A stretch of DNA of 64,000 nt from Escherichia coli (GTDB lineage Bacteria > Pseudomonadota > Gammaproteobacteria > Enterobacterales > Enterobacteriaceae). The notes under the pieces are model-generated. The model did no database searches and had not been told where the DNA came from. It worked only from the letters and a program-made list of their open reading frames with translations. Below, piece after piece: positions 727-34,509 of the stretch. The stretch lies in the NCBI RefSeq assembly GCF_009931435.1, contig NZ_CP043414.1; one strand, given 5' to 3'. The position numbers were made by a program, and so were the translations under genes. Position 1 is the stretch's first letter. Each line of letters opens with the position of its first letter.

Positions 727-735
727 GGAGCAAAT

Positions 736-1050: not shown

Positions 1051-1090
1051 TGAGTTGCGGTGCCGGAAAATATCCAGCACCGCGCCTTCA

Positions 1091-2485: not shown

Positions 2486-2959
2486 TATTTACGTTCCCTG
2501 AAATAAAGGAGACCCTACGCTTTCCAAAAGGAATACGTATATAGAGAAATATAAGGTGTGCACTTTCGAATTTTTAATCCAACTTCAGCAGGCCGATGGA
2601 TAGTATCCCGCCACATAATATGAGTAAATCCGCTGATTTCCTGGAACGTGAGGAATATAACAATAGTGCCGTTTTTAACTAAATATCGTAAAATATTAGA
2701 TATAATTCACGCTGACTCATAAGCCACAAATATAAATAGCCTTGCTGCAAAATATGTGCGGCAGTTAAACATTCACAACATCATTAAATAATGATTTCTT
2801 ATTCACTGCATTTATTTTGCCCATCAATATGTGCCTTACACCGCAAAATTTATCCTTCACTCTGCCTTATATTGTCACGACTTCACGACATATCCGCGCT
2901 CATCACAAAACCGCCCCGCCGTTACAATTAACTATAATATTTTTTCATGGAGTCCAATA

Positions 2960-3406
2960 ATGGCAGCCCTTACTGCAAGCTGTATTGACCTGAATATTCA
3001 GGGCAATGGCACTTATTCCGTTCTGAAGCAGTTGGCGACAATGGCGTTACAAAACGGTTTTATCACCGACTCACATCAATTCCTGCAAACCCTGCTGGTG
3101 CGCGAAAAAATGCACTCCACCGGTTTTGGTTCTGGTGTCGCCGTGCCGCACGGTAAAAGCGCCTGTGTTAAACAACCGTTCGTATTATTCGCTCGCAAAG
3201 CGCAGGCCATTGACTGGAAAGCCAGCGATGGCGAAGACGTCAATTGCTGGATCTGCCTCGGCGTGCCGCAAAGTGGCGAAGAGGATCAGGTCAAAATCAT
3301 CGGCACGCTGTGTCGCAAAATTATCCACCAGGATTTTATCAACCAACTGCGACAAGGCGACGCCGTCCAGGTGCTTGCTTTGTTAAATCAAACCCTCAGC
3401 TCATAA
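2960..3406 (+). CDS. frvA: PTS fructose-like IIA component
   Basis: 148 aa from ATG at 2960 (MAALTASCIDLNIQGNG...); the longer ORF-track start at 2831 is judged an over-extension; matches remembered FrvA length. Confidence 0.9.
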   Translation: MAALTASCIDLNIQGNGTYSVLKQLATMALQNGFITDSHQFLQTLLVREKMHSTGFGSGVAVPHGKSACVKQPFVLFARKAQAIDWKASDGEDVNCWICLGVPQSGEEDQVKIIGTLCRKIIHQDFINQLRQGDAVQVLALLNQTLSS

Positions 3407-3416
3407 GGACGTGGCG

Positions 3417-7676: not shown

Positions 7677-7679
7677 ACT

Positions 7680-7704
7680 GTGTCGGATGCGCCGCATCCG
7701 ACAC
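7680..7704. terminator. Palindromic hairpin between convergent frvR and yiiG (putative bidirectional terminator / REP-like)
   Basis: GTGTCGGATGCG..CGCATCCGACAC perfect inverted repeat at 7680-7704, just after the frvR stop and before the yiiG stop. Confidence 0.4.
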
Positions 7705-7731
7705 TGCATTTATCACCAAAATCAAAAACAT

Positions 7732-8787
7732 TTAACGCAGGCGATTATAGTCATCGACCATTTCGTTGTACTCGCGTAACGCTCGCGGAAATGAGTCGTC
7801 GACCATCCAGCTGGTGTTTGCATCCTGAAGTTGCTCTTTATCCCAGTCAGAGTACGGAACTTTATCTCTGACGCGGCGAACGTATTTTTTAGCCTCGAGT
7901 TGATACTGGTCTGCCGAATTAATGAACGAGAAATTCATACCGCCTTTATCCGCTTCTTTGGCCTGCGCCACCAGCGTTTCCAGTTCAGAGACTTTCTTCA
8001 TTGCCGCATCAACATCAAACTTCTCTTGCGAAATCAGGTTATTAATTTGTTTCGCTGAAATCATGACTGCCAGGGAGTAGTAGTGGAATGTTTTTCCTTC
8101 TGTTTCTTCAATATTTTTCAGTTCCGCAAGCTGACGCTTATCGTTAATTTCCTGAATCGCCGCATGATAAGATTCTGCTACAGGTTCAAAGGCTTCAAGA
8201 TTTTTTAAGAATGTCTGGTGCAGCGTTTTCCCTTTCGCAAACGCATCGTCTTTATAATTTTCCTGGGTGTAATATTTATCCATTTCGTTAATGGTATTAC
8301 CCAACGCCACGGCAGCATCAATATAACTCACCGCCACGCCATCAATAGGTTGCAGCGCAGGCGTTAACGCCACAGCACTTTTTACGCCTTTTTCACACTC
8401 AGCGAGGTTGGATTCACTAATACCGTAGATACCATAAACAGTACGCTCTTCACCGGTAGGGCCCTGTTTAAAATCTTTCAGCCAGTCAGCATAACGCGCC
8501 AGACTGCTCTGTACCGGGATCTGTAACTTGTTGTAGCACTTGATATAGACATCCATTTTTTCGTCGAAAACCGCTTGTTCATCGACCACCGGTTGCGCAG
8601 GTGTTTCAGGTTTAGCTTCTGCTTTTGCAACGGGAGCTTCAGTAGGTTTCGCTTCAGGAGTTGGTGCGGCAGGTTGACTATTGGCGGGCGGGGGCGTTTC
8701 TGTTTCGGATTTTTTATCGTCACAACCCGTGAGACCGAGAGCCATTATGGCGACTATAATAGCGGAAGATAATAAATTCCTTTTCAT
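7732..8787 (-). CDS. yiiG: Lipoprotein YiiG (DUF3829 family)
   Basis: 351 aa ORF with lipoprotein signal MKRNLLSSAIIVAIMALGLTGC followed by Pro/Ala/Glu-rich linker; position between frvR and fdhD. Confidence 0.9.
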   Translation of the reverse strand: MKRNLLSSAIIVAIMALGLTGCDDKKSETETPPPANSQPAAPTPEAKPTEAPVAKAEAKPETPAQPVVDEQAVFDEKMDVYIKCYNKLQIPVQSSLARYADWLKDFKQGPTGEERTVYGIYGISESNLAECEKGVKSAVALTPALQPIDGVAVSYIDAAVALGNTINEMDKYYTQENYKDDAFAKGKTLHQTFLKNLEAFEPVAESYHAAIQEINDKRQLAELKNIEETEGKTFHYYSLAVMISAKQINNLISQEKFDVDAAMKKVSELETLVAQAKEADKGGMNFSFINSADQYQLEAKKYVRRVRDKVPYSDWDKEQLQDANTSWMVDDSFPRALREYNEMVDDYNRLR

Positions 8788-8941
8788 TTAATTGCCTTAT
8801 AAATAGATAAATAAGAGAGTGAATATAATAAATGAAAAAAGAAAATGTCACTACACGCGTTTTGTTTATAAATAAGTCGATAATATTCATAAAATGAATA
8901 AGTCCTGTAATTTAATTTCTAAATCACAGGACTTATTTTAA

Positions 8942-9775
8942 TTAATTACTCAAACGCTGCGGATGGGTATAAACCGTTGCCCGACCCGGCTTACAAAAGC
9001 CCACCAGCGTCAAATTACAGCGCTCAGCCACTTCTACGGCAAGCGTGGTCGCGGCAGACACCGCAAACAAAATTTCTACGCCGCACATCGCTGACTTTTG
9101 CACCATTTCATAACTGGCACGACTGGAAACCAGCACCGCACCTTGCTGCCAGCTTTCCCCTTCTTGTGACCGGCGGCCTAACAGTTTATCCAGCGCCACA
9201 TGGCGACCCACGTCTTCATGCCCGCCTACCAGTTCGCCAGATGGCAACATCCAGGCAGCGGCGTGAGTACAACCAGTCAGTTGCCCCACTGGCTGGAAAT
9301 CATTGAGATGGCGTAATGCATCATCCAGTTTGTTGAGATCAAATGTCTGAGTGAACGGCAGCGGCTGCACCGGTTTACCGATGTCATTAAGTTGCTCCAC
9401 GCCGCACACACCACATCCCGTACGTCCCGCCAGTGCCCGACGACGCTCCTTCAACCCCATAAAGCGGCGGCTGGAAAGCTCAATTTGCACTTCCAGACCA
9501 TTACAGGAAGGAACGACATCCATACCGAAGATATCGCGCGGACTTTCGATAATCCCCTCGGAAAGCGAAAAACCGAGCGCAAAGTATTCAAGGTCTTTGG
9601 GCGACGCCATCATCACCACATGCGAAATGCCGTTGTAGACCAGCGCAACGGGAACCTCTTCCGCCACCTCATCTAACCGTGGGTGTTGTAAATCGTCACG
9701 CCGCCATAACTCAATTTGACGAACACCTGTGACATTTGTCACATTTTTGATTTCTTTTTGCTGTGTTTTTTTCAC
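8942..9775 (-). CDS. fdhD: Formate dehydrogenase accessory sulfurtransferase FdhD
   Basis: 277 aa [31 protein letters not shown]... recognised as FdhD; divergent from fdoG. Confidence 0.95.
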
Positions 9776-9968
9776 TTTCTATTAACCGGATAAGAACACA
9801 CACACCAACATTATGGTATTCTGTTACAAACCCTTCCTGGATGGAGGGAAATTGAGCCAATTCTGGACCTTTGCGGCCCCTTCCGCAAAGAAAAATAACT
9901 CCCACTCCCTGCACACGCAGCAAGCGAATGTAAATGGGACGTGACAATGTCGAAACAAGGAGCAATCC

Positions 9969-21834: not shown

Positions 21835-22620
21835 CTACGCGTCTTCCTGGGGAAGGATGATTTCAATTTGGCTGTCTTGTAAGCGTGATTTTAGCGCAGC
21901 GGGCGGCAGCTCGTCGGTAAAGAGCGCAGTGACCTGTGCCACGTTACCAATTTCAACCGCCGCCGAAGCATGATACTTAGTGTGATCGGCGACCAGCAGA
22001 ATATTTCTCGCGTGCGCCATCATCGTTTTCACCACGTTAGCTTCGTTTACATCAAACTCCATCAACGCGCCATCGCTCTCAATCGCCCCAACGCTTGTTA
22101 CCAGATAATCAGCCCGAAAATCGGCCACAAAGGAAGCCGCTGAAGGGCCAATGATCCCGCTATTATGAGAGCGCAACGTACCGCCGGGCACCATCACTTC
22201 AAAGCGCGGGTTGTGGTACAGAATATGCGCCACACGCAGGCTGTTCGTGATTATCCGCAAATGATTATGGTTAAGTAACGCCCGGGCGACATGTTCGACA
22301 GTCGTACCGATGGTGATAAATATTGTCGATCCATCAGGAATATAGTCTGCCACCGCTTCGGCAATCGCTTTTTTCTCTTCAGTTTGCGAAACCTCACGCT
22401 GTTCGAACGCCGTATTAACGACGCTGGAGGCCCGACCCGCGCCACCGTGATGGCGCGTGATCAGCCCTTGCTCGCTTAATTTACGAATATCCCGGCGGAC
22501 CGTCTGCGTGGAAACATCCAGCAGATTTGCCAGCTCATCAATATTCATATACCCACGCTCGGCGATCAGCATGAGGAGTTGGTCGTGCCGCGGGTTACCG
22601 GTCAGTTCGGTAAGGCTCAT
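21835..22620 (-). CDS. csqR: DeoR-family repressor of the sulfoquinovose operon
   Basis: DeoR-type HTH (IDELANLLDVSTQTVRRDIRKL); start chosen at MSLTELTG, which has GAGG upstream (261 aa). Also known as yihW. Confidence 0.9.
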   Translation of the reverse strand: MSLTELTGNPRHDQLLMLIAERGYMNIDELANLLDVSTQTVRRDIRKLSEQGLITRHHGGAGRASSVVNTAFEQREVSQTEEKKAIAEAVADYIPDGSTIFITIGTTVEHVARALLNHNHLRIITNSLRVAHILYHNPRFEVMVPGGTLRSHNSGIIGPSAASFVADFRADYLVTSVGAIESDGALMEFDVNEANVVKTMMAHARNILLVADHTKYHASAAVEIGNVAQVTALFTDELPPAALKSRLQDSQIEIILPQEDA

Positions 22621-22653
22621 GAAAATTCCTCGAAAAACCATCACCCTGGCATT

Positions 22654-23550
22654 TTATACAAAAAGTGACAAAAAAGATCGGGTTTGATCACAGTCAGGGA
22701 TCCCGGCACGCCCACCGGGACGCGTGCATTTTAACGCCGCCACACCGCTGGCAAAGCGGACGGAATCCGCTAAATCTCCACCTGTTGCCAGCGCCACCGC
22801 CAATGCGCCGTGAAAAACATCGCCCGCACCGGTAGTATCTACCACATCAACTTTGAAAGCTGGCTGATGCTGTCGCCCGCCATTCTCCAGCCAGTCACAG
22901 CCTGCACTGCCCTGAGTAACATAGACATGTCCATTTGTGATCGTTTGTGCCTGTTTTAGGGCACTCGCCATCTCTTTCACGCCCGTTAGCCGCGCCAGAC
23001 CCGGTTCTGAAAAAGCGGCATGATCGCTTAACGCCACCAGCTCACTGATATCCTGCGGCGTAATATCACCGTCCAGCACGGTCATCACGCCCACCTGCCG
23101 GGCCAGGGTGAAGGCTTTTTTCGCGCCGTCGTGCCAGCGTACATCTGCCAGCACCACGTCCCACTGAGAGAAATCAATTTCCTCCAACCACTCTGCGTCA
23201 GGCAGCAGGTCCGGGCTGGGATAGTTAATGATGATTCGCTCGCCTTTGGCATCCACCATGATGGCGGATTGCGAAGATTTCGCCTGGTTATACCGTTTGG
23301 TGTAACGGGTGTTAACGCCCCAGGATTCCAGCTCTGCCAGCAGGCTGTTGCCCGTGTCGTCGTCACCGACGCGACCAATAAAATCGACCTGCGCACCCAG
23401 TCTGGCCGCCGCAACTGCTGCTGTAGCCGCTGGCCCGCCGCCAACTTCCGTATAATTTTTTGCCACGTACTTACCGCTCTCCGTCGGCAACCCTTCCACG
23501 TAATAGATGCGATCCATCACGGTAATTCCTACACAAGCAACACGAATCAT
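22654..23550 (-). CDS. yihV: 6-deoxy-6-sulfofructose kinase (PfkB family)
   Basis: PfkB/ribokinase-like ORF (GAGDVFHGALAVALA motif); start taken at MIRVACVG (298 aa). Confidence 0.9.
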   Translation of the reverse strand: MIRVACVGITVMDRIYYVEGLPTESGKYVAKNYTEVGGGPAATAAVAAARLGAQVDFIGRVGDDDTGNSLLAELESWGVNTRYTKRYNQAKSSQSAIMVDAKGERIIINYPSPDLLPDAEWLEEIDFSQWDVVLADVRWHDGAKKAFTLARQVGVMTVLDGDITPQDISELVALSDHAAFSEPGLARLTGVKEMASALKQAQTITNGHVYVTQGSAGCDWLENGGRQHQPAFKVDVVDTTGAGDVFHGALAVALATGGDLADSVRFASGVAALKCTRPGGRAGIPDCDQTRSFLSLFV

Positions 23551-23556
23551 GGTCAT

Positions 23557-23717
23557 TCCTTAAGCATTTTGGGATGCGTTCATTTTAATTTCACCAATTG
23601 TTTAAAAAGTGACGGCTGTCAATTTTTTGACGATAAATTACAAATACGATCAAAAACAGACAAGCAAGGCATGTCATAAATGACAAAAAGTGACATCACT
23701 GTATTCAGGAGAGGGTT
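23557..23717. promoter_or_regulatory. Divergent yihV / yihU promoter region with repeated AAAAAGTGAC motifs (candidate CsqR operators)
   Basis: AAAAAGTGAC at 23603-23612 and 23685-23694; palindrome TGTCATAAATGACA at 23669-23682; a third AAAAAGTGAC copy at 22660-22669 upstream of csqR. Confidence 0.5.
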
Positions 23718-24614
23718 ATGGCAGCAATCGCGTTTATCGGTTTAGGACAAATGGGTTCGCCAATGGCGAGCAATTTATTGCAGCAAGGGCATCAACTTTG
23801 CGTCTTCGATGTGAATGCCGAAGCCGTACAGCATCTGGTAGACAAAGGGGCGACTCCCGCTGCTAACCCAGCGCAGGCCGCTAAAGGTGCCGAATTTATC
23901 ATTACCATGTTGCCGAATGGCGATCTGGTGCGTCACGTGTTGTTCGGTGAAAACGGTGTCTGTGAGAGCTTATCTTCCGATGCGCTGGTCATTGATATGT
24001 CGACCATCCACCCGCTGCAAACCGATAAATTGATTGCTGATATGCAGGCCAGAGGCTTCAGCATGATGGATGTTCCGGTTGGCCGTACTTCCGCAAATGC
24101 CATTACCGGTACTCTGCTACTGCTGGCTGGCGGCACTGCTGAACAAGTTGAACGCGCCACGCCGATCCTGATGGCGATGGGCAGCGAGTTGATCAACGCG
24201 GGCGGTCCGGGCATGGGGATCCGCGTTAAGCTCATCAACAACTATATGAGTATCGCGCTCAATGCGCTTTCGGCAGAAGCTGCCGTTTTGTGCGAAGCCC
24301 TCAATCTTCCCTTCGATGTTGCCGTCAAGGTAATGAGCGGTACTGCCGCCGGTAAAGGCCACTTCACCACTTCCTGGCCGAACAAAGTCCTCAGCGGAGA
24401 TCTTTCTCCCGCCTTCATGATCGATCTTGCCCATAAGGATCTTGGCATCGCCCTTGATGTCGCCAACCAGTTGCATGTGCCGATGCCACTGGGGGCCGCC
24501 TCACGGGAGGTTTATAGCCAGGCGCGCGCAGCGGGTCGCGGTCGCCAGGACTGGTCCGCCATTCTGGAGCAGGTCCGTGTCAGTGCCGGGATGACTGCCA
24601 AAGTAAAAATGTAA
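23718..24614 (+). CDS. yihU: 3-sulfolactaldehyde reductase (NAD-binding, 3-hydroxyisobutyrate dehydrogenase-like)
   Basis: 298 aa ORF with N-terminal Rossmann motif [14 protein letters not shown]. Confidence 0.95.
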
Positions 24615-24637
24615 CGACTGGATAAAGGAATAAATGA

Positions 24638-25516
24638 ATGAATAAGTACACCATCAACGACATTACGCGCGCATCGGGCGGTTTTGCCATGCTGGCAGTC
24701 GATCAGCGCGAAGCCATGCGCATGATGTTTGCCGCGGCTGGCGCACCCGCTCCAGTAGCCGATAGCGTTTTAACTGATTTCAAAGTTAACGCCGCGAAGA
24801 CGCTTTCACCTTATGCATCGGCGATTCTGGTAGATCAACAATTCTGCTACCGCCAGGTGGTTGAGCAAAACGCGATTGCCAAAAGTTGCGCCATGATTGT
24901 CGCCGCCGATGAGTTCATCCCTGGCAACGGTATTCCGGTAGATAGCGTAGTCATTGACCGCAAAATCAACCCGCTACAAATCAAACAAGACGGTGGCAAA
25001 GCCCTGAAACTACTGGTGCTGTGGCGTAGTGATGAAGATGCGCAGCAACGCCTGGATATGGTGAAAGAGTTCAACGAACTGTGCCACTCACACGGTCTGG
25101 TAAGCATTATTGAGCCAGTCGTCCGCCCACCGCGTCGTGGCGATAAATTCGATCGCGAACAAGCGATCATCGATGCCGCCAAAGAGCTGGGCGACAGTGG
25201 CGCTGACCTCTACAAAGTTGAAATGCCGCTTTACGGAAAAGGTCCGCAACAAGAGCTTCTCAGTGCTTCACAACGTCTGAATGACCATATCAATATGCCG
25301 TGGGTGATCCTCTCTTCCGGCGTTGACGAAAAACTGTTCCCGCGTGCCGTGCGCGTGGCGATGACGGCGGGCGCATCGGGCTTCCTGGCCGGTCGGGCCG
25401 TCTGGGCATCGGTGGTCGGTTTACCAGACAACGAACTGATGCTGCGTGACGTTTGCGCACCGAAATTACAACAACTTGGCGATATCGTCGACGAAATGAT
25501 GGCTAAACGCCGTTAA
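24638..25516 (+). CDS. yihT: 6-deoxy-6-sulfofructose-1-phosphate aldolase
   Basis: 292 aa [31 protein letters not shown]... (class I aldolase-like) in conserved position. Confidence 0.95.
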
Positions 25517-25531
25517 GATGAGGATACAAAA

Positions 25532-26773
25532 ATGAAATGGTTTAACACCTTAAGTCACAACCGTTGGCTGGAACAGGAAACCGATCGCATCTTTGATTTT
25601 GGTAAAAATTCCGTAGTACCGACTGGCTTTGGCTGGTTAGGCAATAAAGGGCAAATCAAAGAAGAGATGGGCACCCATCTGTGGATCACCGCCCGTATGT
25701 TGCACGTTTATTCCGTTGCTGCGGCGATGGGTCGACCTGGCGCTTACTCGTTGGTTGATCATGGTATCAAAGCCATGAACGGCGCACTGCGCGATAAAAA
25801 ATATGGCGGCTGGTATGCCTGTGTCAATGACGAGGGCGTGGTGGATGCCTCCAAACAGGGCTATCAACATTTCTTTGCCCTGCTGGGTGCCGCCAGTGCT
25901 GTCACAACGGGTCACCCGGAAGCGCGTAAGCTGCTCGATTACACCATTGAAATTATCGAGAAATACTTCTGGAGCGAAGAAGAGCAGATGTGCCTGGAAT
26001 CCTGGGACGAAGCCTTCAGCAAAACCGAAGAGTACCGCGGCGGCAATGCCAATATGCACGCGGTGGAAGCTTTCTTGATTGTTTATGACGTAACGCATGA
26101 CAAAAAATGGCTGGATCGCGCGATTCGCGTGGCTTCCGTCATTATCCACGACGTCGCCAGAAATAATCATTATCGCGTTAACGAGCACTTCGATACCCAG
26201 TGGAATCCGCTGCCGGATTACAACAAAGATAACCCGGCGCACCGCTTCCGCGCATTCGGAGGCACGCCGGGCCACTGGATCGAATGGGGCCGTTTAATGC
26301 TGCATATCCACGCTGCCCTGGAAGCCCGTTGCGAACAACCTCCAGCATGGCTGCTAGAAGATGCCAAAGGTCTGTTCAACGCTACCGTGCGCGATGCCTG
26401 GGCGCCCGATGGTGCCGACGGGATTGTTTATACCGTTGACTGGGAAGGCAAACCGGTGGTCCGCGAACGTGTGCGTTGGCCTATCGTCGAAGCGATGGGT
26501 ACGGCTTACGCGCTCTACACCGTTACCGGCGATCGCCAGTACGAAACCTGGTATCAGACATGGTGGGACTACTGCATTAAGTACCTGATGGACTATGAAA
26601 ATGGTTCCTGGTGGCAGGAGCTGGATGCGGACAATAAGGTCACCACCAAAGTCTGGGACGGTAAACAGGATATTTATCACCTGCTGCATTGCCTGGTGAT
26701 CCCGCGTATCCCGTTAGCGCCAGGCCTGGCTCCGGCAGTTGCGGCGGGTCTGCTGGACGTGAATGCCAAATAA
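25532..26773 (+). CDS. yihS: Sulfoquinovose isomerase
   Basis: 413 aa [30 protein letters not shown]... recognised as YihS. Confidence 0.95.
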
Positions 26774-26788
26774 CTGACTGAAAACCCT

Positions 26789-26835
26789 AACCCTCTCCCC
26801 AAAGGGGAGAGGGGACCGCCCGGCGCAGTTTTTTG
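26789..26835 (+). terminator. GC-rich hairpin plus T-tract after yihS
   Basis: CCCCTCTCCCC-AAA-GGGGAGAGGGG (26789-26814) followed by TTTTTTGG (26829-26836). Confidence 0.4.
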
Positions 26836-26891
26836 GTTTGACATCAGCCTCATGGGAGGCTGTATGCCGTTTTTTAATTAAGGTGCCTCGT

Positions 26892-27794
26892 ATGCAAATC
26901 ACCAACATGCATTGCAGTGGACAAACCGTTTCACTTGCCGCGGGGGATTATCACGCGACTATCGTGACGGTTGGTGCTGGTCTGGCTGAATTAACTTTTC
27001 AGGGTTGTCATTTAGTCATCCCGCACAAACCCGAAGAGATGCCGCTGGCGCATCTGGGTAAAGTGCTTATTCCGTGGCCGAACCGGATCGCCAACGGCTG
27101 TTACCGCTATCAGGGACAGGAATATCAGTTACCCATTAATGAACATAGTTCAAAAGCCGCTATTCACGGGCTGCTTGCCTGGCGAGACTGGCAAATTAGC
27201 GAATTAACCGCCACCAGCGTTACCCTGACAGCTTTTCTACCGCCCAGTTACGGCTATCCGTTTATGCTGGCTTCGCAGGTTGTTTATTCGCTCAATGCTC
27301 GCACGGGCCTTTCCGTTGAGATCGCAAGCCAGAATATTGGTACTGTGACCGCACCTTATGGTGTGGGTATTCATCCTTATTTAACCTGCAACTTAACATC
27401 TGTTGATGACTATCTTTTCCAGCTTCCGGCAGAACAGGTTTATGCCGTCGATGAGCACGCAAATCCGACAACGCTTCACCACGTTGATGAGCTGAATTTA
27501 AATTTCACGCGGGCGACAAAAATAGCCGCGACAAAAATAGACCATACCTTTAAAACCGCTAATGATCTGTGGGAAATGACCATTACCCATCCACAGCAGG
27601 CACTTTCGGTGAGTCTTTGTTCCGATCAACCCTGGGTGCAGGTTTATAGCGGCGAAAAATCACAGCGTCAGGGACTGGCAGTTGAACCTATGAGTTGCCC
27701 GCCTAACGCCTTTAATTCAGGTATCGACTTATTATTACTGGAACCAGGAAAAACGCACCGCCTGTTTTTTAATATTCACGGGCAGCACAATTAA
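26892..27794 (+). CDS. yihR: Aldose-1-epimerase-like protein (putative sulfoquinovose mutarotase)
   Basis: ORF MQITNMHCSGQTVSLAAGDYHATIVTVGAGLAEL...; start uncertain (ATG at 26892 has AAGGTG upstream; ORF track starts at 26838). Confidence 0.85.
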   Translation: MQITNMHCSGQTVSLAAGDYHATIVTVGAGLAELTFQGCHLVIPHKPEEMPLAHLGKVLIPWPNRIANGCYRYQGQEYQLPINEHSSKAAIHGLLAWRDWQISELTATSVTLTAFLPPSYGYPFMLASQVVYSLNARTGLSVEIASQNIGTVTAPYGVGIHPYLTCNLTSVDDYLFQLPAEQVYAVDEHANPTTLHHVDELNLNFTRATKIAATKIDHTFKTANDLWEMTITHPQQALSVSLCSDQPWVQVYSGEKSQRQGLAVEPMSCPPNAFNSGIDLLLLEPGKTHRLFFNIHGQHN

Positions 27795-27854
27795 TTTTAT
27801 TAAGAAAAGAACGGGATCATTGTTTAGGGTTGTATTTACACAACAGGAAATATT

Positions 27855-28730
27855 ATGGACTTTTTTACGTTATTTTCGCCGGATGGGGCCATGGTGGAAA
27901 CAAGCGTGGTATGTATCGTTATCGCGTTAATGTTTCTTTATACCTTTGTGGGGATATGCGCGGGATTTGGCGGTGGTTTAACCACCATGCCGCTCGTCAC
28001 GTTAATGCTCCCCGTAAAAATGGCAACACCACTTTCGGTAATTGTCGGCACCGCAACCGCCTTGTACGCCACCTGGCTGTCACGTAAAGAAACGGATTGG
28101 CGATCGGCAATGGTACTGATTATTTTCTCGTTTCTGGGAATACCCGTCGGTTTATATGCGCTGTCGTATTTACCCGACCATTTTATGAAAGTGGGCTTAG
28201 GCGGATTCCTTATCCTTTACTCGTTTTACAGCATGTTTATTCCTCGCCTGCCGATTTATGACCGTAACTGGATCGCCGCACCTATCGGCGCAGTAGCTGG
28301 TGCATTAGGCGCGGCGTTCTCAACCAACGGGCCGCCGATGGTTATCTACGGGATGCTGCGTAACTTAGGTCCGGCGGCATTTCGCGGCACACTGAACGCC
28401 TTCTTCACCGCAAACAACATCGCGGTGATCGGCGGGCTGGCGACCAGCGGAATTTTGACTGTTTCTATCTTTAAACTGGTGCTGTTTTGTATTCCCACCA
28501 TGATCCTCGGTTCACTGATTGGACAATATGTGCATAAACGCATTTCGGTCAAAGTGTTTCGTGTGATGGTCTTTTTATTGTTGATTGCCTCCGGTTCTAT
28601 GTTGATAAAAGGTGCGTTGGGAATTCCCGCCGCTGCCGCACTTCTGCCTCCGTTTACCTTGTTAGTTATACTGCAACTGGCATTTGGTAAAAAAGTGGCT
28701 GCAATCCGCCGAGCTGAAGAAAGTAAATAA
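27855..28730 (+). CDS. TauE/SafE-family (DUF81) membrane transporter, putative sulfite/sulfonate exporter
   Basis: 291 aa polytopic ORF with the family-typical Gly-rich TM motif (FVGICAGFGGGLTTMPLV) and internal duplication; sits between yihR and yihQ, where I recall K-12 having no gene. Confidence 0.75.
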   Translation: MDFFTLFSPDGAMVETSVVCIVIALMFLYTFVGICAGFGGGLTTMPLVTLMLPVKMATPLSVIVGTATALYATWLSRKETDWRSAMVLIIFSFLGIPVGLYALSYLPDHFMKVGLGGFLILYSFYSMFIPRLPIYDRNWIAAPIGAVAGALGAAFSTNGPPMVIYGMLRNLGPAAFRGTLNAFFTANNIAVIGGLATSGILTVSIFKLVLFCIPTMILGSLIGQYVHKRISVKVFRVMVFLLLIASGSMLIKGALGIPAAAALLPPFTLLVILQLAFGKKVAAIRRAEESK

Positions 28731-28837
28731 TCACTTGCGCGGGTTTTAATTTATACCCGCACACATTCTTTGATTAATGAAACCTGTAATAACAGGATGG
28801 CATGAAATATTAGTTTTATACTCTATGGAGATTATTT

Positions 28838-30874
28838 ATGGATACGCCACGCCCACAGTTATTAGATTTTCAATTTCATCAGAATAACGACAGTTTTACT
28901 CTACGTTTTCAAGACCGTCTTATTTTAATCCATAGCAAAGATAATCCTTGCTTATCGATTGGCTCAGGTATAGCGGATATCGATATGTTCCGCGGTAATT
29001 TCAGCATTAAAGATAAATTGCAGGAGAAGATTGCGCTCACCGACGCCATCGTCAGCCAGTCACCGGATGGCTGGTTAATCCATTTCAGCCGTGGTTCTGA
29101 CATTAGCGCCACGCTGCGTATCTCTGCCGACGATCAGGGCCGTTTATTGCTGGAACTACAAAACGACAACCATCACCACAACCGCATCTGGCTGCGTCTT
29201 GCCGCACAACCAGAGGACCATATCTACGGCTGCGGCGAACAATTCTCCTACTTTGATCTGCGCGGCAAACCGTTCCCGCTATGGACCAGTGAACAAGGCG
29301 TTGGTCGCAACAAACAAACCTATGTCACCTGGCAGGCCGACTGCAAAGAGAACGCGGGCGGCGACTATTACTGGACTTTCTTCCCGCAGCCTACTTTTGT
29401 CAGCACGCAGAAGTATTACTGCCATGTTGATAACAGTTGCTATATGAACTTCGACTTTAGTGCCCCGGAATACCATGAACTGGCGCTGTGGGAAGACAAA
29501 GCAACGCTGCGTTTTGAATGTACTGATACATACATCTCCCTGCTGGAAAAATTAACTGCCCTGCTGGGACGTCAGCCAGAACTGCCCGACTGGATTTATG
29601 ACGGGGTAACGCTCGGCATTCAGGGTGGGACGGAAGTGTGTCAGAAGAAACTGGACACCATGCGTAACGCGGGCGTGAAGGTCAACGGCATCTGGGCGCA
29701 GGACTGGTCCGGGATCCGTATGACCTCTTTTGGCAAACGTGTGATGTGGAACTGGAAGTGGAACAGTGAAAACTACCCACAGTTAGATTCCCGCATCAAG
29801 CAATGGAAAGAAGAAGGCGTGCAGTTCCTCGCCTACATCAACCCGTATGTTGCCAGCGATAAAGATCTCTGCGAAGAAGCGGCGCAACATGGCTATCTGG
29901 CAAAAGATGCCTCTGGCGGTGACTATCTGGTGGAATTTGGGGAGTTTTACGGCGGCGTTGTCGATTTGACCAATCCTGAAGCCTATTCCTGGTTTAAAGA
30001 GGTCATCAAGAAAAACATGATCGAATTGGGCTGCGGCGGCTGGATGGCAGATTTTGGCGAATATTTGCCGACCGATACGTATCTGCATAACGGCGTTAGC
30101 GCCGAAATTATGCATAACGCCTGGCCCGCACTGTGGGCGAAATGTAACTACGAAGCCCTTGAAGAAACGGGCAAGCTTGGCGAGATCCTTTTCTTTATGC
30201 GCGCCGGTTCTACCGGTAGCCAGAAATACTCCACCATGATGTGGGCGGGCGACCAGAACGTCGACTGGAGTCTGGACGATGGCCTGGCGTCGGTTGTTCC
30301 GGCGGCGCTCTCGCTGGCGATGACCGGGCATGGCCTGCATCACAGTGACATTGGCGGTTACACCACCCTGTTTGAGATGAAGCGCAGCAAAGAGCTGCTG
30401 CTGCGCTGGTGCGATTTCAGCGCCTTCACGTCGATGATGCGCACCCACGAAGGCAACCGTCCGGGCGACAACTGGCAGTTTGACGGCGACGCGGAAACTA
30501 TTGCCCATTTTGCCCGTATGACCACCGTCTTCACCACCCTGAAACCTTACCTGAAAGAGGCCGTCGCGCTGAATGCGAAGTCCGGCCTGCCGGTTATGCG
30601 CCCGCTGTTCCTGCATTACGAAGACGATGCGCAGACCTACACCCTGAAATATCAGTACCTGTTAGGCCGCGACATTCTGGTCGCTCCGGTGCATGAACAA
30701 GGCCGTAGCGACTGGACGCTCTATCTGCCGGAGGATAACTGGGTCCACGCCTGGACAGGTGAAGCGTTCCAGGGCGAGGAAGTTACCGTTAATGCGCCCA
30801 TCGGTAAACCGCCGGTCTTTTATCGCGCCGATAGCGAATGGGCGGTACTGTTCGCGTCGTTAAAAAGCATCTAA
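28838..30874 (+). CDS. yihQ: Sulfoquinovosidase (GH31 alpha-glucosidase family)
   Basis: 678 aa ORF MDTPRPQLLDFQFHQNNDSFTLRF...; GH31-like WAQDWSG region. Confidence 0.95.
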   Translation: MDTPRPQLLDFQFHQNNDSFTLRFQDRLILIHSKDNPCLSIGSGIADIDMFRGNFSIKDKLQEKIALTDAIVSQSPDGWLIHFSRGSDISATLRISADDQGRLLLELQNDNHHHNRIWLRLAAQPEDHIYGCGEQFSYFDLRGKPFPLWTSEQGVGRNKQTYVTWQADCKENAGGDYYWTFFPQPTFVSTQKYYCHVDNSCYMNFDFSAPEYHELALWEDKATLRFECTDTYISLLEKLTALLGRQPELPDWIYDGVTLGIQGGTEVCQKKLDTMRNAGVKVNGIWAQDWSGIRMTSFGKRVMWNWKWNSENYPQLDSRIKQWKEEGVQFLAYINPYVASDKDLCEEAAQHGYLAKDASGGDYLVEFGEFYGGVVDLTNPEAYSWFKEVIKKNMIELGCGGWMADFGEYLPTDTYLHNGVSAEIMHNAWPALWAKCNYEALEETGKLGEILFFMRAGSTGSQKYSTMMWAGDQNVDWSLDDGLASVVPAALSLAMTGHGLHHSDIGGYTTLFEMKRSKELLLRWCDFSAFTSMMRTHEGNRPGDNWQFDGDAETIAHFARMTTVFTTLKPYLKEAVALNAKSGLPVMRPLFLHYEDDAQTYTLKYQYLLGRDILVAPVHEQGRSDWTLYLPEDNWVHAWTGEAFQGEEVTVNAPIGKPPVFYRADSEWAVLFASLKSI

Positions 30875-30919
30875 TCACGTCCGCCCGTGGGGAAACTCAC
30901 GGGCAAAGGGAGAACAACG

Positions 30920-32305
30920 ATGAGTCACATCACAACGGAAGATCCTGCTACTTTACGTCTGCCCTTTAAAGAGAAACTCTCTTACGGTATCGGAGATCTG
31001 GCCTCTAACATCCTGCTGGATATCGGCACGCTTTATCTTTTGAAGTTTTATACCGACGTTCTGGGGCTGCCCGGCACCTATGGCGGTATTATCTTTTTGA
31101 TCTCGAAATTCTTTACCGCCTTTACCGACATGGGTACCGGCATCATGCTCGATTCCCGGCGTAAGATCGGTCCAAAAGGTAAGTTCCGTCCTTTTATTCT
31201 GTATGCGTCATTCCCGGTCACCTTACTGGCGATCGCCAACTTTGTCGGCACACCGTTTGATGTCACCGGTAAAACGGTGATGGCCACTATCCTGTTTATG
31301 CTCTACGGGCTGTTTTTCAGCATGATGAACTGCTCTTATGGCGCAATGGTCCCCGCTATTACCAAAAACCCCAACGAACGCGCATCACTGGCGGCATGGC
31401 GTCAGGGTGGCGCTACATTGGGCCTGCTGCTTTGTACGGTGGGATTCGTGCCGGTTATGAATCTTATCGAGGGTAATCAGCAACTTGGCTATATCTTCGC
31501 CGCCACGCTATTTTCACTGTTCGGCCTGCTGTTTATGTGGATCTGCTACTCGGGCGTGAAAGAGCGTTATGTCGAAACCCAACCTGCAAATCCGGCGCAA
31601 AAGCCAGGCTTGTTGCAATCTTTCCGTGCGATTGCCGGTAACCGCCCGCTGTTCATTTTGTGCATTGCTAACCTCTGTACCTTAGGGGCATTTAACGTCA
31701 AGCTCGCCATTCAGGTCTATTACACCCAGTACGTGCTTAACGATCCCATCCTGTTGTCATATATGGGATTTTTCAGCATGGGCTGTATTTTCATCGGCGT
31801 GTTCCTGATGCCTGGTGCAGTCAGACGTTTTGGTAAGAAGAAAGTCTATATCGGCGGTCTGCTGATCTGGGTGCTGGGCGATCTGCTCAACTATTTCTTC
31901 GGCGGCGGCTCGGTCAGCTTTGTGGCGTTCTCCTGCCTGGCGTTCTTCGGCTCAGCGTTTGTTAACAGCCTGAACTGGGCGCTGGTTTCTGACACCGTCG
32001 AGTACGGCGAGTGGCGCACCGGCGTTCGTTCGGAAGGTACGGTCTACACCGGCTTCACCTTCTTTCGCAAAGTATCTCAGGCGCTGGCAGGTTTCTTCCC
32101 AGGCTGGATGCTGACGCAAATCGGCTATGTGCCAAACGTGGCGCAGGCTGACCATACCATCGAAGGTTTACGCCAGCTGATCTTCATCTACCCAAGCGCA
32201 CTGGCGGTAGTCACCATTGTGGCGATGGGTTGCTTCTACAGTCTGAACGAGAAAATGTACGTCCGCATTGTTGAAGAAATAGAAGCCCGTAAACGCACGG
32301 CATAA
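30920..32305 (+). CDS. yihP: GPH-family transporter YihP
   Basis: 12-TM ORF; start at MSHITTEDPATL with AGGGAG upstream (461 aa); paralogous to the following yihO. Confidence 0.9.
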   Translation: MSHITTEDPATLRLPFKEKLSYGIGDLASNILLDIGTLYLLKFYTDVLGLPGTYGGIIFLISKFFTAFTDMGTGIMLDSRRKIGPKGKFRPFILYASFPVTLLAIANFVGTPFDVTGKTVMATILFMLYGLFFSMMNCSYGAMVPAITKNPNERASLAAWRQGGATLGLLLCTVGFVPVMNLIEGNQQLGYIFAATLFSLFGLLFMWICYSGVKERYVETQPANPAQKPGLLQSFRAIAGNRPLFILCIANLCTLGAFNVKLAIQVYYTQYVLNDPILLSYMGFFSMGCIFIGVFLMPGAVRRFGKKKVYIGGLLIWVLGDLLNYFFGGGSVSFVAFSCLAFFGSAFVNSLNWALVSDTVEYGEWRTGVRSEGTVYTGFTFFRKVSQALAGFFPGWMLTQIGYVPNVAQADHTIEGLRQLIFIYPSALAVVTIVAMGCFYSLNEKMYVRIVEEIEARKRTA

Positions 32306-32345
32306 ATAATAAACAACGCCCTGCGGGGCGTTATAAGGAGTGATT

Positions 32346-33749
32346 ATGTCTGACCATAATCCACTGACATTAAAACTGAATCTGCGGGAAAAAATCGCTT
32401 ATGGCATGGGCGACGTCGGTTCGAATTTAATGCTTAGCATCGGCACTCTGTATCTCCTCAAATTTTATACCGATGAATTAGGGATGCCTGCTTACTATGG
32501 CGGGATTATCTTTCTGGTGGCGAAATTCTTTACCGCGTTTACCGATATGCTCACCGGATTTTTACTCGACTCGCGGAAAAATATTGGGCCTAAAGGCAAA
32601 TTTCGTCCCTTTATTTTATATGCAGCGGTTCCGGCGGCGTTAATTGCAACGCTCCAGTTTATCGCCACCACCTTTAGTTTGCCGGTTAAAACGACGATTG
32701 CCACCGCGCTGTTTATGATGTTTGGACTTTCATACAGTCTGATGAACTGCTCGTATGGCGCGATGATCCCGGCCATTACCAAAAACCCCAATGAGCGCGC
32801 GCAGCTCGCAGCTTATCGACAAGGAGGAGCCACCATAGGGCTATTGATTTGTACCGTGGCGTTTATTCCGTTGCAGTCGCTATTTTCTGACCCCACCGTC
32901 GGTTACGCCTGCGCGGCACTGATGTTCTCCATTGGCGGCTTTATTTTTATGATGCTGTGCTACAGAGGCGTCAAAGAGCATTATGTGGACGCAACGCCAA
33001 CCGGACATAAAGCCAGTATTCTCAAATCATTTTGCGCGATATTTCGTAATCCGCCATTGCTGGTTTTATGCATTGCTAACCTGTGTACCCTGGCGGCATT
33101 TAATATCAAACTGGCAATTCAGGTCTATTACACCCAGTATGTGCTGAATGATATTAATTTATTGTCGTGGATGGGATTCTTCAGTATGGGATGCATCCTC
33201 ATCGGCGTATTGCTGGTGCCATTAACTGTAAAATGTTTTGGTAAAAAACAGGTTTATTTAGCTGGCATGGTGCTGTGGGCGGTGGGGGATATCCTGAATT
33301 ATTTCTGGGGCAGTAACTCTTTCACTTTCGTCATGTTCTCTTGTGTCGCCTTTTTTGGTACGGCCTTTGTAAACAGCCTGAACTGGGCGCTGGTACCGGA
33401 TACCGTAGATTATGGTGAATGGAAAACCGGTATTCGTGCCGAAGGTTCTGTTTATACCGGTTATACCTTCTTTCGTAAAATTTCAGCCGCACTTGCTGGC
33501 TTCTTGCCAGGCATTATGCTGACGCAAATCGGTTATGTTCCCAACATCGCGCAAAGCGATGCAACATTACAGGGTTTGCGTCAGCTCATTTTTATTTGGC
33601 CTTGTGCGCTGGCGATAATTGCTGCATTGACGATGGGATTCTTTTACACGCTCAATGAAAAACGTTTTGCGTTAATTATTGAGGACATCAACCAACGTAA
33701 AAATAAAGAGATTGAGACAAAAGAAAAAACTGCTTCCGTAACGTTATAA
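32346..33749 (+). CDS. yihO: GPH-family transporter YihO (sulfoquinovose importer)
   Basis: ORF MSDHNPLTLKLNLREKIAYGMGDVGSNLML...; clear paralog of yihP by eye. Confidence 0.9.
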   Translation: MSDHNPLTLKLNLREKIAYGMGDVGSNLMLSIGTLYLLKFYTDELGMPAYYGGIIFLVAKFFTAFTDMLTGFLLDSRKNIGPKGKFRPFILYAAVPAALIATLQFIATTFSLPVKTTIATALFMMFGLSYSLMNCSYGAMIPAITKNPNERAQLAAYRQGGATIGLLICTVAFIPLQSLFSDPTVGYACAALMFSIGGFIFMMLCYRGVKEHYVDATPTGHKASILKSFCAIFRNPPLLVLCIANLCTLAAFNIKLAIQVYYTQYVLNDINLLSWMGFFSMGCILIGVLLVPLTVKCFGKKQVYLAGMVLWAVGDILNYFWGSNSFTFVMFSCVAFFGTAFVNSLNWALVPDTVDYGEWKTGIRAEGSVYTGYTFFRKISAALAGFLPGIMLTQIGYVPNIAQSDATLQGLRQLIFIWPCALAIIAALTMGFFYTLNEKRFALIIEDINQRKNKEIETKEKTASVTL

Positions 33750-33816
33750 ATGTCAATAGCCGCTATTTCCATCCTGATGGGTGGCGGCCCCCCTACGTTA
33801 AAAAAATGGACTTATT

Positions 33817-34509
33817 ATGAAAAAGATTAATGCAATAATTTTATTATCTTCTCTGACCTCTGCCTCGGTATTTGCTGGCGCATACGTCGAAAACAGGGAG
33901 GCATATAATCTCGCCTCCGATCAGGCAGAAATTATGCTACGTGTAGGTTATAACTTCGATATGGGCGCGGGTATCATGTTAACCAATACCTATAATTTTC
34001 AGAGAGAAGATGAGCTTAAACATGGCTACAATGAAATTGAAGGTTGGTATCCTTTATTCAAACCAACCGATAAATTAACCATCCAACCCGGTGGCTTAAT
34101 TAATGATAAAAGCACCGGTTCCGGTGGTGCAGTATATCTGGACGTCAACTATAAATTTGTACCATGGTTTAATCTGACAGTGCGAAATCGCTATAACCAT
34201 AATAACTATAGTTCAACAGATTTGAACGGGGAGCTGGATAATAATGACACCTATGAAATTGGTACCTACTGGAATTTTAAAATCACCGAGAAATTCTCCT
34301 ATACATTTGAGCCACATTATTTCATACGCGTAAATGACTTTAATAGCAGCAATGGAAAAGATCATCATTGGGAAATCACTAATACCTTCCGTTACCGTAT
34401 TAATGAACACTGGCTGCCTTATTTCGAATTACGCTGGTTAGATCGTAATATAGAACCATACCACCGCGAGCAAAACCAGATTCGTATCGGGACGAAGTAT
34501 TTCTTCTGA
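33817..34509 (+). CDS. ompL: Outer membrane porin L
   Basis: 230 aa ORF with signal peptide MKKINAIILLSSLTSASVFA and C-terminal ...GTKYFF. Confidence 0.9.
   Translation: MKKINAIILLSSLTSASVFAGAYVENREAYNLASDQAEIMLRVGYNFDMGAGIMLTNTYNFQREDELKHGYNEIEGWYPLFKPTDKLTIQPGGLINDKSTGSGGAVYLDVNYKFVPWFNLTVRNRYNHNNYSSTDLNGELDNNDTYEIGTYWNFKITEKFSYTFEPHYFIRVNDFNSSNGKDHHWEITNTFRYRINEHWLPYFELRWLDRNIEPYHREQNQIRIGTKYFF

What the first reader, a model, noticed from the sequence alone, without database searches (positions are those of the whole stretch)
27855..28730. TauE/SafE-family transporter gene embedded in the sulfoquinovose (sulfoglycolysis) cluster
A 291 aa polytopic protein with the Gly-rich motifs typical of TauE/SafE (DUF81) sulfite/sulfoacetate/sulfolactate exporters sits between yihR and yihQ. 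As I recall the K-12 cluster (yihO-P-Q-R-S-T-U-V-W) it has no gene here, and the pathway's organosulfonate end-product (DHPS) lacks a firmly assigned exporter. A dedicated TauE-type exporter in this position would be a functionally coherent accessory addition. GC content looks host-like, so it may be an ancestral gene lost in K-12 rather than a recent import.
Basis: partly seen in the sequence, partly recalled or inferred. Interest (0 to 1): 0.6.

Follow-up and report, generated by a model that had tools for sequence, protein, structure and literature searches.

The report
TauE-type sulfonate exporter in sulfoquinovose cluster
An intact membrane-transporter gene of the TauE/SafE family sits between yihR and yihQ in this Escherichia sulfoquinovose-degradation cluster; it is missing from K-12 but already annotated in about a quarter of complete E. 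coli genomes and in Salmonella, and it most likely pumps out the pathway's sulfonate waste product (DHPS).

Summary
The ORF at 27855-28730 (+) encodes 291 aa and matches Pfam TauE/SafE (PF01925, E 2.4e-35). It lies between yihR and yihQ in a complete yih sulfo-EMP cluster. K-12 lacks it: about 139 bp of unrelated AT-rich sequence replaces roughly 980 bp.

The gene is not new. It is present essentially full-length in 1287 of 5426 complete E. coli genomes, O157:H7 included. In every hit listed but one IS1-truncated copy, RefSeq calls it an intact "sulfite exporter TauE/SafE family protein". Salmonella, Citrobacter, Superficieibacter and Mangrovibacter carry it at the same position, with divergence like the flanking genes. 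dN/dS is about 0.03.

New here:
- The protein belongs to a tight, isolated TSUP clade (members at least 65% identical, next relatives at most 38%).
- All 28 genome loci found lie inside a sulfoglycolysis cluster, either sulfo-EMP or a sulfo-ED-type cluster with a YihU-like reductase.

Best reading, inferred and untested: an exporter of the C3 sulfonate end product, DHPS. "Sulfite exporter" is probably a misnomer, because no desulfonating enzyme is encoded in the cluster. Interest is low to moderate.

The parts
27855..28730 (+). CDS for a 291-aa TauE/SafE (TSUP) family membrane protein of the sulfoglycolysis-linked clade
   Evidence: ORF. Pfam PF01925 E 2.4e-35. RefSeq homolog WP_000345431.1 is annotated over the same 876 bp. 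dN/dS about 0.03. AF2 model pLDDT 93.9 with 11 helices.
27845..27848 (+). Shine-Dalgarno AGGA, 6 nt upstream of the ATG
   Evidence: Read directly from the sequence.
27798..28780 (.). Segment present here and in about 32% of cluster-bearing E. coli; K-12-type strains have about 139 bp of unrelated AT-rich sequence instead
   Evidence: Alignment and blastn junctions. The same filler occurs in isolate AHB6. Population counts.
26892..27794 (+). yihR (sulfoquinovose mutarotase / aldose-1-epimerase), upstream neighbour, stop codon 60 nt before the TauE start
   Evidence: Coordinates transferred from the RefSeq annotation of L002. tblastn. The mechanical ORF list extends it to a TTG at 26838.
28783..28796 (.). 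Short palindrome CCTGTAATAACAGG where homology with K-12 resumes, upstream of yihQ
   Evidence: Exact copies only in three Escherichia loci (K-12, 2013C-4282, E. whittamii). Function unknown.
28838..30874 (+). yihQ (sulfoquinovosidase), downstream neighbour, 107 nt after the TauE stop
30887..33749 (+). yihP and yihO, two GPH:cation symporter paralogs that are 65% identical to each other
   Evidence: NCBIfam TIGR00792, 536 and 528 bits. Pairwise identity.
21835..26773 (.). Remainder of the sulfo-EMP cluster: csqR(-), yihV(-), yihU, yihT, yihS
   Evidence: ORFs. 97-100% aa identity to the K-12 proteins.

Best explanation
The gene encodes an inner-membrane TSUP/TauE-family permease that is a dedicated part of the sulfoquinovose catabolic cluster. 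It most likely exports the C3 organosulfonate end product, 2,3-dihydroxypropane-1-sulfonate (DHPS), made by the YihU reductase, and possibly sulfolactate as well. It is probably co-transcribed with yihR and yihQ. The model has two similar five-helix units, each containing a short broken helix that begins at a Gly/Pro-rich motif (GFGGG 37-41, STNGPP 156-161). By inference, the N-termini of these two half-helices meet in the membrane and form the anion (sulfonate) site. Shown here: family membership, intactness, purifying selection, strict linkage to sulfoglycolysis clusters, and absence from K-12. Inferred: substrate, direction of transport, binding site and co-transcription.
For: (1) All 28 orthologous genome loci (65-99% aa identity) lie inside a sulfoglycolysis cluster. 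Sixteen are in yih sulfo-EMP clusters, at yihR-TauE-yihQ or at yihQ-TauE-yihP/yihO. Twelve are in sulfo-ED-type clusters (dehydratase, aldolase, mutarotase, lactonase, YihU-like reductase, SDR dehydrogenase), where TauE lies at or near the 3' end. The step shared by both cluster types is reduction of sulfolactaldehyde and disposal of the product.
(2) Most ED-type clusters contain only one other transporter, a solute:sodium symporter (NF007790, 674 bits), which belongs to an importer family. That leaves TauE for efflux.
(3) A Pasteurellaceae (Lonepinella) sulfo-EMP cluster pairs a TRAP importer with an unrelated 243-aa TauE (31% identical) and has no MFS transporter. This is an independent recruitment of the same family.
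(4) YihP, the textbook 'DHPS exporter', is a GPH:cation symporter 65% identical to the importer YihO. Its exporter role is only 'most likely' in the literature (PMC6278857).
(5) Two clusters with TauE keep only one of the two GPH paralogs (L020, L030). K-12 keeps both and lacks TauE.
(6) TauE-type proteins are the proposed sulfolactate/DHPS/isethionate exporters in other sulfoglycolysis pathways (SftE in PMC7491151; Arthrobacter AK04; SqwE).
(7) dN/dS is about 0.03, and 1287 of the 1295 E. coli genomes with any match keep at least 80% of the gene.
(8) No promoter-like site (on the gene's strand) and no terminator-like site (on either strand) separates yihR from TauE or TauE from yihQ. In ED clusters the gene starts 10-40 nt after the preceding gene.
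Against: There is no experimental evidence for substrate or direction in this clade. K-12 excretes DHPS without this gene (literature), so it is dispensable for export. About 68% of cluster-bearing E. coli lack it. The loci were found by searching with TauE, so the 28/28 linkage shows specificity of the clade, not necessity for the pathway. An Orbus sulfo-EMP cluster has no TauE within 10 kb. The family takes its name partly from an uptake permease, and one paper assigns TauE in these clusters to sulfoquinovose import (PMC8940949). The ED-cluster reductase scores below the curated sulfolactaldehyde reductase cut-off (149 vs 348 bits), so DHPS as its product is inferred.
Confidence: 0.6

Rival explanations
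1. It is an importer, either of sulfoquinovose or its glycosides or of another sulfonate, working alongside YihO and YihP.
For: The TSUP family is named after a toluene-sulfonate uptake permease. PMC8940949 states that TauE transporters in sulfo-EMP and sulfo-ED clusters import sulfoquinovose and its glycosides.
Against: Every cluster found already encodes importer-type systems: two GPH symporters, an SSF symporter or a TRAP system. None has another obvious efflux candidate. Other sulfoglycolysis papers assign TauE-type proteins to export.
Confidence: 0.15
2. It is a sulfite exporter, as the RefSeq product name says.
For: The name comes from TauE of Cupriavidus necator. The Pfam family match is solid.
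Against: Every gene in the EMP and ED clusters is accounted for by steps that stop at a C3 sulfonate. No desulfonating enzyme is encoded next to it in any of the 28 loci, and E. coli excretes DHPS without cleaving the C-S bond. The clade is at most 38% identical to any other TSUP protein, so transferring a name from a distant member is weak evidence.
Confidence: 0.05
3. It has a role in the cluster that is neither C3-sulfonate export, nor sulfosugar/sulfonate import, nor sulfite export. Examples: release of a toxic intermediate such as sulfolactaldehyde, or a counter-ion or pH-balancing permease.
For: Dispensability in K-12-type strains. The clade has an extra C-terminal helix and charged tail absent from typical 240-aa TSUP proteins, which hints at a specialised function.
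Against: There is no positive evidence. The simplest need shared by both cluster types is disposal of the end product.
Confidence: 0.15
4. It is a decaying or hitch-hiking gene with no current function.
For: It is lost in most E. coli. One strain has an IS1 truncation.
Against: dN/dS is 0.03-0.06 across Escherichia, Salmonella, Citrobacter, Superficieibacter and Mangrovibacter. Identity is 80-86% across Enterobacterales. 1287 of the 1295 matching E. coli genomes keep at least 80% of the gene.
Confidence: 0.03

Closest known systems
RefSeq 'sulfite exporter TauE/SafE family protein' (e.g. WP_000345431.1) of E. coli O157:H7 and other strains, and its Salmonella enterica ortholog
   Same: The same gene at the same position (yihR-TauE-yihQ). 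98-99% (E. coli) and 86% (Salmonella) aa identity.
   Different: Nothing material. The window copy differs by a few residues. The product name is generic and probably wrong about the substrate.
TauE-type exporters proposed in other sulfoglycolysis clusters: SftE (sulfo-TAL pathway, Bacillus aryabhattai and gut Firmicutes), SqwE (sulfo-TK pathway), TauE of Arthrobacter AK04, TauE of Pseudomonas putida SQ1-type sulfo-ED clusters
   Same: The same Pfam family, and encoded inside a sulfoquinovose catabolic cluster. The proposed role is efflux of the sulfonate end product.
   Different: This is a different clade. The Enterobacterales clade is at most 38% identical to any other TSUP cluster representative and has about 40 extra C-terminal residues forming an additional helix. 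Those other exporters are also uncharacterised biochemically. I could not compare their sequences directly.
TauE of Cupriavidus necator H16 and SafE of Neptuniibacter caesariensis (founding members of DUF81/PF01925; from my own knowledge of Weinitschke et al. 2007 and Krejcik et al. 2008)
   Same: Family membership by profile. Link to organosulfonate metabolism.
   Different: Those act in C2-sulfonate (taurine, sulfoacetate) pathways. Sulfite is produced there but not in this pathway.
YihP (GPH-family MFS transporter), the DHPS exporter assumed in the E. coli K-12 model
   Same: The same proposed job in the same cluster.
   Different: An unrelated fold and family. YihP is a close paralog (65%) of the importer YihO and belongs to a cation-symporter family. 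Neither protein has been tested.
BacA/UppP undecaprenyl-pyrophosphate phosphatase (PDB 5OON)
   Different: 8% sequence identity, and BacA is an enzyme, not a transporter. There is no sequence-level homolog in the PDB.

Membership tests
Pfam PF01925 TauE/SafE = TSUP family (TC 2.A.102) | Significant full-length match to the family profile | tested here: met
   i-Evalue 2.4e-35, 122.8 bits, residues 23-248 on model positions 2-235 of 237. 5663 relatives at E<=1e-3 in the representative library.
Pfam PF01925 TauE/SafE = TSUP family (TC 2.A.102) | Small polytopic membrane protein (about 240-300 aa, about 8 TMS) with Gly-rich motifs | tested here: met
   The AF2 model (pLDDT 93.9) is all-helical with 11 helical segments. 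Hydropathy peaks. GFGGG and NGPP motifs are nearly invariant across the family alignment.
Pfam PF01925 TauE/SafE = TSUP family (TC 2.A.102) | Internal duplication (4+4 TMS repeat) | tested here: inconclusive
   The half-against-half self-alignment is not significant (z = -0.28). The model does show two units with the same helix pattern (16-128 and 138-255).
Pfam PF01925 TauE/SafE = TSUP family (TC 2.A.102) | Transport of sulfite or an organosulfonate | not testable with these tools
   Needs transport assays.
Sulfoglycolysis-cluster sulfonate exporters (SftE/SqwE/TauE type) | Encoded within a sulfoquinovose catabolic gene cluster | tested here: met
   The window cluster. 28 of 28 orthologous loci are in sulfo-EMP or sulfo-ED-type clusters.
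Sulfoglycolysis-cluster sulfonate exporters (SftE/SqwE/TauE type) | Co-expression with the pathway (induced by sulfoquinovose) | not tested
   Indirect only: same strand, gaps of 60 nt and 107 nt, and no promoter- or terminator-like site in the flanking spacers.
Sulfoglycolysis-cluster sulfonate exporters (SftE/SqwE/TauE type) | Efflux of DHPS or sulfolactate | not testable with these tools
   Needs genetics and transport assays.
Sulfite exporter TauE sensu stricto | Association with a sulfite-releasing (desulfonating) enzyme | tested here: not met
   No such gene in the window cluster or in the 28 related loci. All neighbours map to steps ending in a C3 sulfonate.

The most novel reading that the evidence does not exclude
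This TauE clade, not YihP, is the native DHPS exporter of Enterobacterales sulfoglycolysis. YihO and YihP would then both be importers (for example sulfoquinovose versus sulfoquinovosyl glycerol). The K-12 model would describe a degenerate cluster that lost its exporter and relies on a substitute. TauE-positive strains (O157:H7, Salmonella) would then clear DHPS faster and grow better on sulfoquinovose than K-12-type strains.
Probability: 0.35. Interest if true: 0.5.

Novelty: already known. Interest (0 to 1): 0.3.

Why it matters
Sulfoquinovose is among the most abundant organosulfur compounds. DHPS released by Enterobacteriaceae feeds the sulfite-respiring gut bacteria that make H2S. The export step of the textbook E. 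coli pathway has never been demonstrated and is assigned to YihP by guesswork. A conserved, pathway-specific TauE-type permease exists in Salmonella, O157:H7 and about a third of cluster-bearing E. coli, but not in the K-12 model strain. This gives a concrete, easily tested candidate for the export step. It also means K-12 is not representative of the cluster. The gene itself is nevertheless ordinary and already annotated.

Tried and rejected
- NCBIfam has no model for this protein, so no curated name is available.
- A sequence search of the PDB found nothing at E<=1. Only the fold search gave a relative, BacA.
- The promoter/terminator scan found nothing above the shuffle expectation, so the operon structure remains inferred.
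- I looked for remnants of the gene in the K-12 spacer and found only chance-level short matches. The origin of the 139-bp filler is unresolved.
- I considered many independent deletions in E. coli. This was rejected for the common allele, because K-12 and an unrelated UK isolate share the same filler. One separate IS1-mediated truncation does exist.
- I first took the window for Escherichia whittamii because of a 99% aa TauE match. I rejected this: typA is 98-99% identical to all E. coli, and the best whole-region matches are E. coli strains (98.1-98.5%).
- The internal-repeat test by self-alignment failed.
- Denger et al. 2014 is not in the held library, so I could not check what it says about TauE in non-K-12 clusters.
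- I could not assign E. coli phylogroups to carriers and non-carriers with the tools available.
- 'yihP absent when TauE is present' had to be softened. In L020 the single GPH transporter is equally close to YihO and YihP (71% vs 69%).

Full report
**Observation.** The window holds a complete yih sulfoquinovose (sulfo-EMP) cluster: csqR(-) 21835-22644, yihV(-) 22654-23556, yihU 23718-24614, yihT 24638-25516, yihS 25532-26773, yihR to 27794, yihQ 28838-30874, yihP 30887-32305, yihO 32340-33749 and ompL 33817-34509. Between yihR and yihQ lies an ATG-to-TAA ORF at 27855-28730 (+) encoding 291 aa. An AGGA Shine-Dalgarno sits 6 nt upstream of the start. The protein matches Pfam PF01925 (TauE/SafE) over residues 23-248 with i-Evalue 2.4e-35. 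NCBIfam has no model for it.

**Is it absent from K-12, and how common is it?**
- In a K-12 record, yihR is followed directly by yihQ with a 198-bp spacer.
- Homology between window and K-12 stops just after the yihR stop codon and resumes at the palindrome CCTGTAATAACAGG, about 55 bp before the yihQ start. In between, K-12 has about 139 bp of AT-rich sequence with no detectable relation to the roughly 980 bp of the window.
- An unrelated UK blood isolate carries the same filler, so the common gene-less state is one replacement allele.
- Among 5426 complete E. coli genomes, 4036 have the yihS-yihQ region. Of these, 1287 carry at least 80% of the gene, always on the chromosome. Carriers include O157:H7 and O55:H7.
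- In every hit row I saw but one, RefSeq annotates it as an intact 'sulfite exporter TauE/SafE family protein'. The exception is strain BE2-5, where an IS1 element truncates it after 90 bp and RefSeq marks the remnant as a partial pseudogene.
- The gene is therefore polymorphic in E. coli (24% of all complete genomes, 32% of cluster-bearing ones) and already catalogued.

**Source organism.** The TauE protein is 99% identical to that of Escherichia whittamii. However, typA in the window is 98.2-99.1% identical to essentially all E. coli. The best matches for the whole region are E. coli strains 2013C-4282 and 2020CK-00188 (98.5% and 98.1%). The window is therefore E. coli in the broad sense, carrying a yih allele that is 93-97% identical to K-12 at the nucleotide level.

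**Ancestral or imported?**
- The order yihR-TauE-yihQ recurs in Salmonella enterica, S. diarizonae, Citrobacter sp. wls619, Superficieibacter electus, Mangrovibacter plantisponsor and an Enterobacteriaceae MAG.
- Amino-acid identity to Salmonella is 86% for TauE, against 87% (yihQ), 85% (yihP), 84% (yihO) and 88% (yihU) for the flanks. Nucleotide identity (75%) also falls within the range of the flanks (70-84%).
- GC (0.49) and GC3 (0.54) lie within the range of the cluster genes.
- dN/dS is 0.035 against an E. coli allele, 0.030 against E. whittamii and 0.03-0.06 against Salmonella diarizonae, Citrobacter, Superficieibacter and Mangrovibacter.
- One caveat: the species-representative scan found the gene in E. 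whittamii but returned no locus from any other Escherichia species. Because the two search motifs are invariant in the clade, the representative genomes of the other Escherichia species (names inferred, not checked individually) probably lack it. Loss therefore seems frequent in the genus.

**What kind of TauE is it?**
- An exhaustive HMMER search of 1.84 billion 50%-identity cluster representatives found 5663 family members. Only one full-length representative belongs to the same group (80% identity). The next full-length relatives drop to at most 38% identity and are typically 235-250 aa.
- Orthologs across Enterobacterales are 75-88% identical to the window protein (mostly 77-86%). Those in Vibrio and Aeromonas are 76% identical, and the one in the betaproteobacterium Craterilacuibacter is 65%.
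- The clade carries an extra conserved N-terminal segment and an extra C-terminal helix with a basic tail (residues about 256-291), both outside the Pfam domain.
- The two nearest out-group relatives I examined sit in unrelated gene neighbourhoods.

**Genomic context of the clade.** I compared all 28 loci from the species-representative genome scan with the window's yih proteins and with the proteins of a Hafnia cluster by tblastn. Every locus places the gene inside a sulfoglycolysis cluster.
- Sixteen are yih sulfo-EMP clusters. The gene lies between yihR and yihQ in six of them. In the other ten (Kluyvera, C. freundii, three Pantoea, two Atlantibacter, Lelliottia and others) it follows yihQ, ahead of yihP or yihO.
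- Twelve are sulfo-ED-type clusters: LacI regulator, SSF symporter, dehydratase, aldolase, mutarotase, lactonase, a YihU-like beta-hydroxyacid dehydrogenase and an SDR dehydrogenase. TauE lies at or near the 3' end, typically starting 10-40 nt after the SDR gene. They occur in Mixta, Leminorella, Edwardsiella, Buttiauxella, Enterobacter, C. amalonaticus, Vibrio owensii, Aeromonas cavernicola and Craterilacuibacter. Two Hafnia loci fetched separately show the same arrangement.
- Sulfo-ED clusters in Hafnia, Leminorella and Vibrio have been noted before (PMC7491151).
- One near-identical permease is thus shared by two biochemically different routes. What these routes have in common is the last step (sulfolactaldehyde to a C3 sulfonate) and the need to dispose of the product.

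**Transporter bookkeeping.**
- In the ED-type clusters the only other transporter is usually an SSF solute:sodium symporter (674 bits to NF007790), which belongs to an importer family.
- Sampling sulfo-EMP clusters independently through YihS gave three informative cases. A Pasteurellaceae (Lonepinella) cluster has a TRAP importer plus a different, 243-aa TauE only 31% identical, and no MFS transporter. An Orbus cluster has two MFS transporters, a porin and no TauE. A Vibrio paucivorans cluster has TRAP genes and a glycyl-radical enzyme and no TauE. Two further look-ups hit contigs too short to be informative.
- YihP and YihO both score above 520 bits on the GPH:cation symporter model and are 65% identical to each other. 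This sits uneasily with one importing a C6 sulfosugar while the other exports a C3 sulfonate.
- Two TauE-containing clusters retain only one GPH paralog (L020, L030). In L020 that protein cannot be assigned to YihO or YihP (71% vs 69%).
- The literature describes YihP as the exporter only as 'most likely' (PMC6278857). A 2026 review repeats the assignment without new data and does not mention TauE (PMC12890257).
- TauE-type proteins are the proposed sulfolactate, DHPS or isethionate exporters in the sulfo-TAL and sulfo-TK pathways and in the Arthrobacter sulfo-EMP pathway.
- One paper instead attributes TauE in sulfo-EMP and sulfo-ED clusters to sulfoquinovose import, citing Denger 2014 and Felux 2015 (PMC8940949). 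I could not read Denger 2014.

**Structure.**
- With a 99-sequence alignment, AlphaFold2 gives a confident model (pLDDT 93.9, pTM 0.90).
- Its helices are 16-36, 40-49, 54-75, 82-105 and 108-128; then 138-155, 159-168, 173-198, 203-227 and 232-255; then an extra helix 259-290.
- The two short helices begin at the family's most conserved motifs (GFGGG 37-41 and STNGPP 156-161). I infer, without proof, that their N-termini form the anion site.
- A half-against-half sequence alignment is not significant, so the classic TSUP internal repeat is seen only in the helix pattern.

**Interpretation.**
- The best-supported reading is a pathway-dedicated exporter of the C3 sulfonate end product, DHPS and perhaps sulfolactate (confidence about 0.6).
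- The RefSeq name 'sulfite exporter' is unlikely to describe its role. None of the clusters encodes a desulfonating enzyme, and E. coli excretes DHPS intact.
- Import remains a live rival (0.15). So does some other cluster-specific role (0.15).
- A functionless remnant is contradicted by the selection data.
- The main weakness is that K-12-type strains manage without the gene, so at most it is one of two or more routes for DHPS.

**Novelty and score.**
- The gene exists in public annotation for more than a thousand E. coli genomes and for Salmonella.
- The association of TauE-family permeases with sulfoglycolysis clusters is established in the literature.
- I found no paper in the held library that discusses this particular gene between yihR and yihQ, or its absence from K-12.
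- The clade-level analysis here sharpens a testable hypothesis about the undemonstrated export step.
- I rate the finding as already known in kind and in existence, with low to moderate interest (0.3).
- The most novel reading still open is that this is the true DHPS exporter, YihP is a second importer, and K-12 is the degenerate case. I give it a probability of about 0.35 and an interest of about 0.5 if true.

Noticed in passing
L001 (E. coli K-12) about 6995-7133; corresponds to window 27798-28780: K-12-type strains carry about 139 bp of AT-rich filler with no detectable similarity to the TauE segment or to the Salmonella region. The same filler is present in an unrelated UK isolate (L035). 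Its origin is unknown.
   Followed up: partly
window 25532-30874 searched against complete E. coli genomes: About 1390 of 5426 complete E. coli genomes (26%) give no megablast match to yihS-yihQ at all. [quoted passage not shown] I did not determine which lineages lack it.
   Followed up: no
window 30887-32305 and 32340-33749: YihP and YihO are 65% identical paralogs, and both score above 520 bits on the GPH:cation symporter model. This makes the textbook split into 'importer' and 'DHPS exporter' questionable.
   Followed up: partly
L019 (Enterobacter sp. ENT03), L017 (Citrobacter amalonaticus), L032 (Enterobacter sp. 10-1): Sulfo-ED-type and sulfo-EMP genes lie side by side in one island. In L019 the EMP part lacks its own yihR and TauE, and the adjacent ED part supplies a mutarotase and the TauE. 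In L017 only yihT, yihU, yihV and csqR-like genes (65-74% identity) follow the ED cluster.
   Followed up: no
[not shown]
   Followed up: partly
L036 (E. coli BE2-5) 2501-4123: An IS1A element truncates the TauE gene after 90 bp. The sequence up to a truncated MFS gene (probably yihN) next to yihM is missing, removing yihQ, yihP, yihO and ompL.
   Followed up: partly
window 21835-34509 compared with L001, L002 and L007: The yih cluster of the window is only 93-97% identical to K-12 at the nucleotide level, while typA is 98-99% identical to all E. coli. Similarity to E. whittamii is mosaic (TauE 95% nt, yihR 86%, csqR 87%, ompL 86%), suggesting recombination within the cluster.
   Followed up: partly
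window 28783-28796: The palindrome CCTGTAATAACAGG lies exactly where homology with K-12 resumes, upstream of yihQ. Exact copies were found only in three Escherichia loci (K-12, 2013C-4282, E. whittamii). Isolate AHB6 has a 6-bp duplication inside it, so it carries no exact copy. It may be a regulatory site or a recombination junction.
   Followed up: partly
hit H29, E. coli BL21(DE3): In BL21(DE3) the match to window 26800-28900 stops after yihR (query 1-986). The start of yihQ is not matched, which suggests a further rearrangement at this junction in the B lineage.
   Followed up: no
L039 (Lonepinella koalarum-like) 795-13134: A Pasteurellaceae sulfo-EMP cluster uses a TRAP transporter (DctPQM) and a canonical 243-aa TauE only 31% identical to the window protein. 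It lies directly upstream of a ribosomal protein operon. This is an independent recruitment of the TauE family to the same pathway.
   Followed up: partly
L041 (Vibrio paucivorans) 1-11251: A sulfo-EMP variant with a class II aldolase (F_bP_aldolase), TRAP genes and an adjacent glycyl-radical enzyme with its activase, and no TauE. This fits internal degradation of DHPS instead of export.
   Followed up: no
window 26838-27794: The mechanical ORF for yihR starts at a TTG (318 aa). RefSeq homologs are annotated at 300 aa, equivalent to a start at window 26892. YihR is also the most divergent protein of the cluster (68% aa identity to Salmonella, against 84-97% for the others).
   Followed up: no
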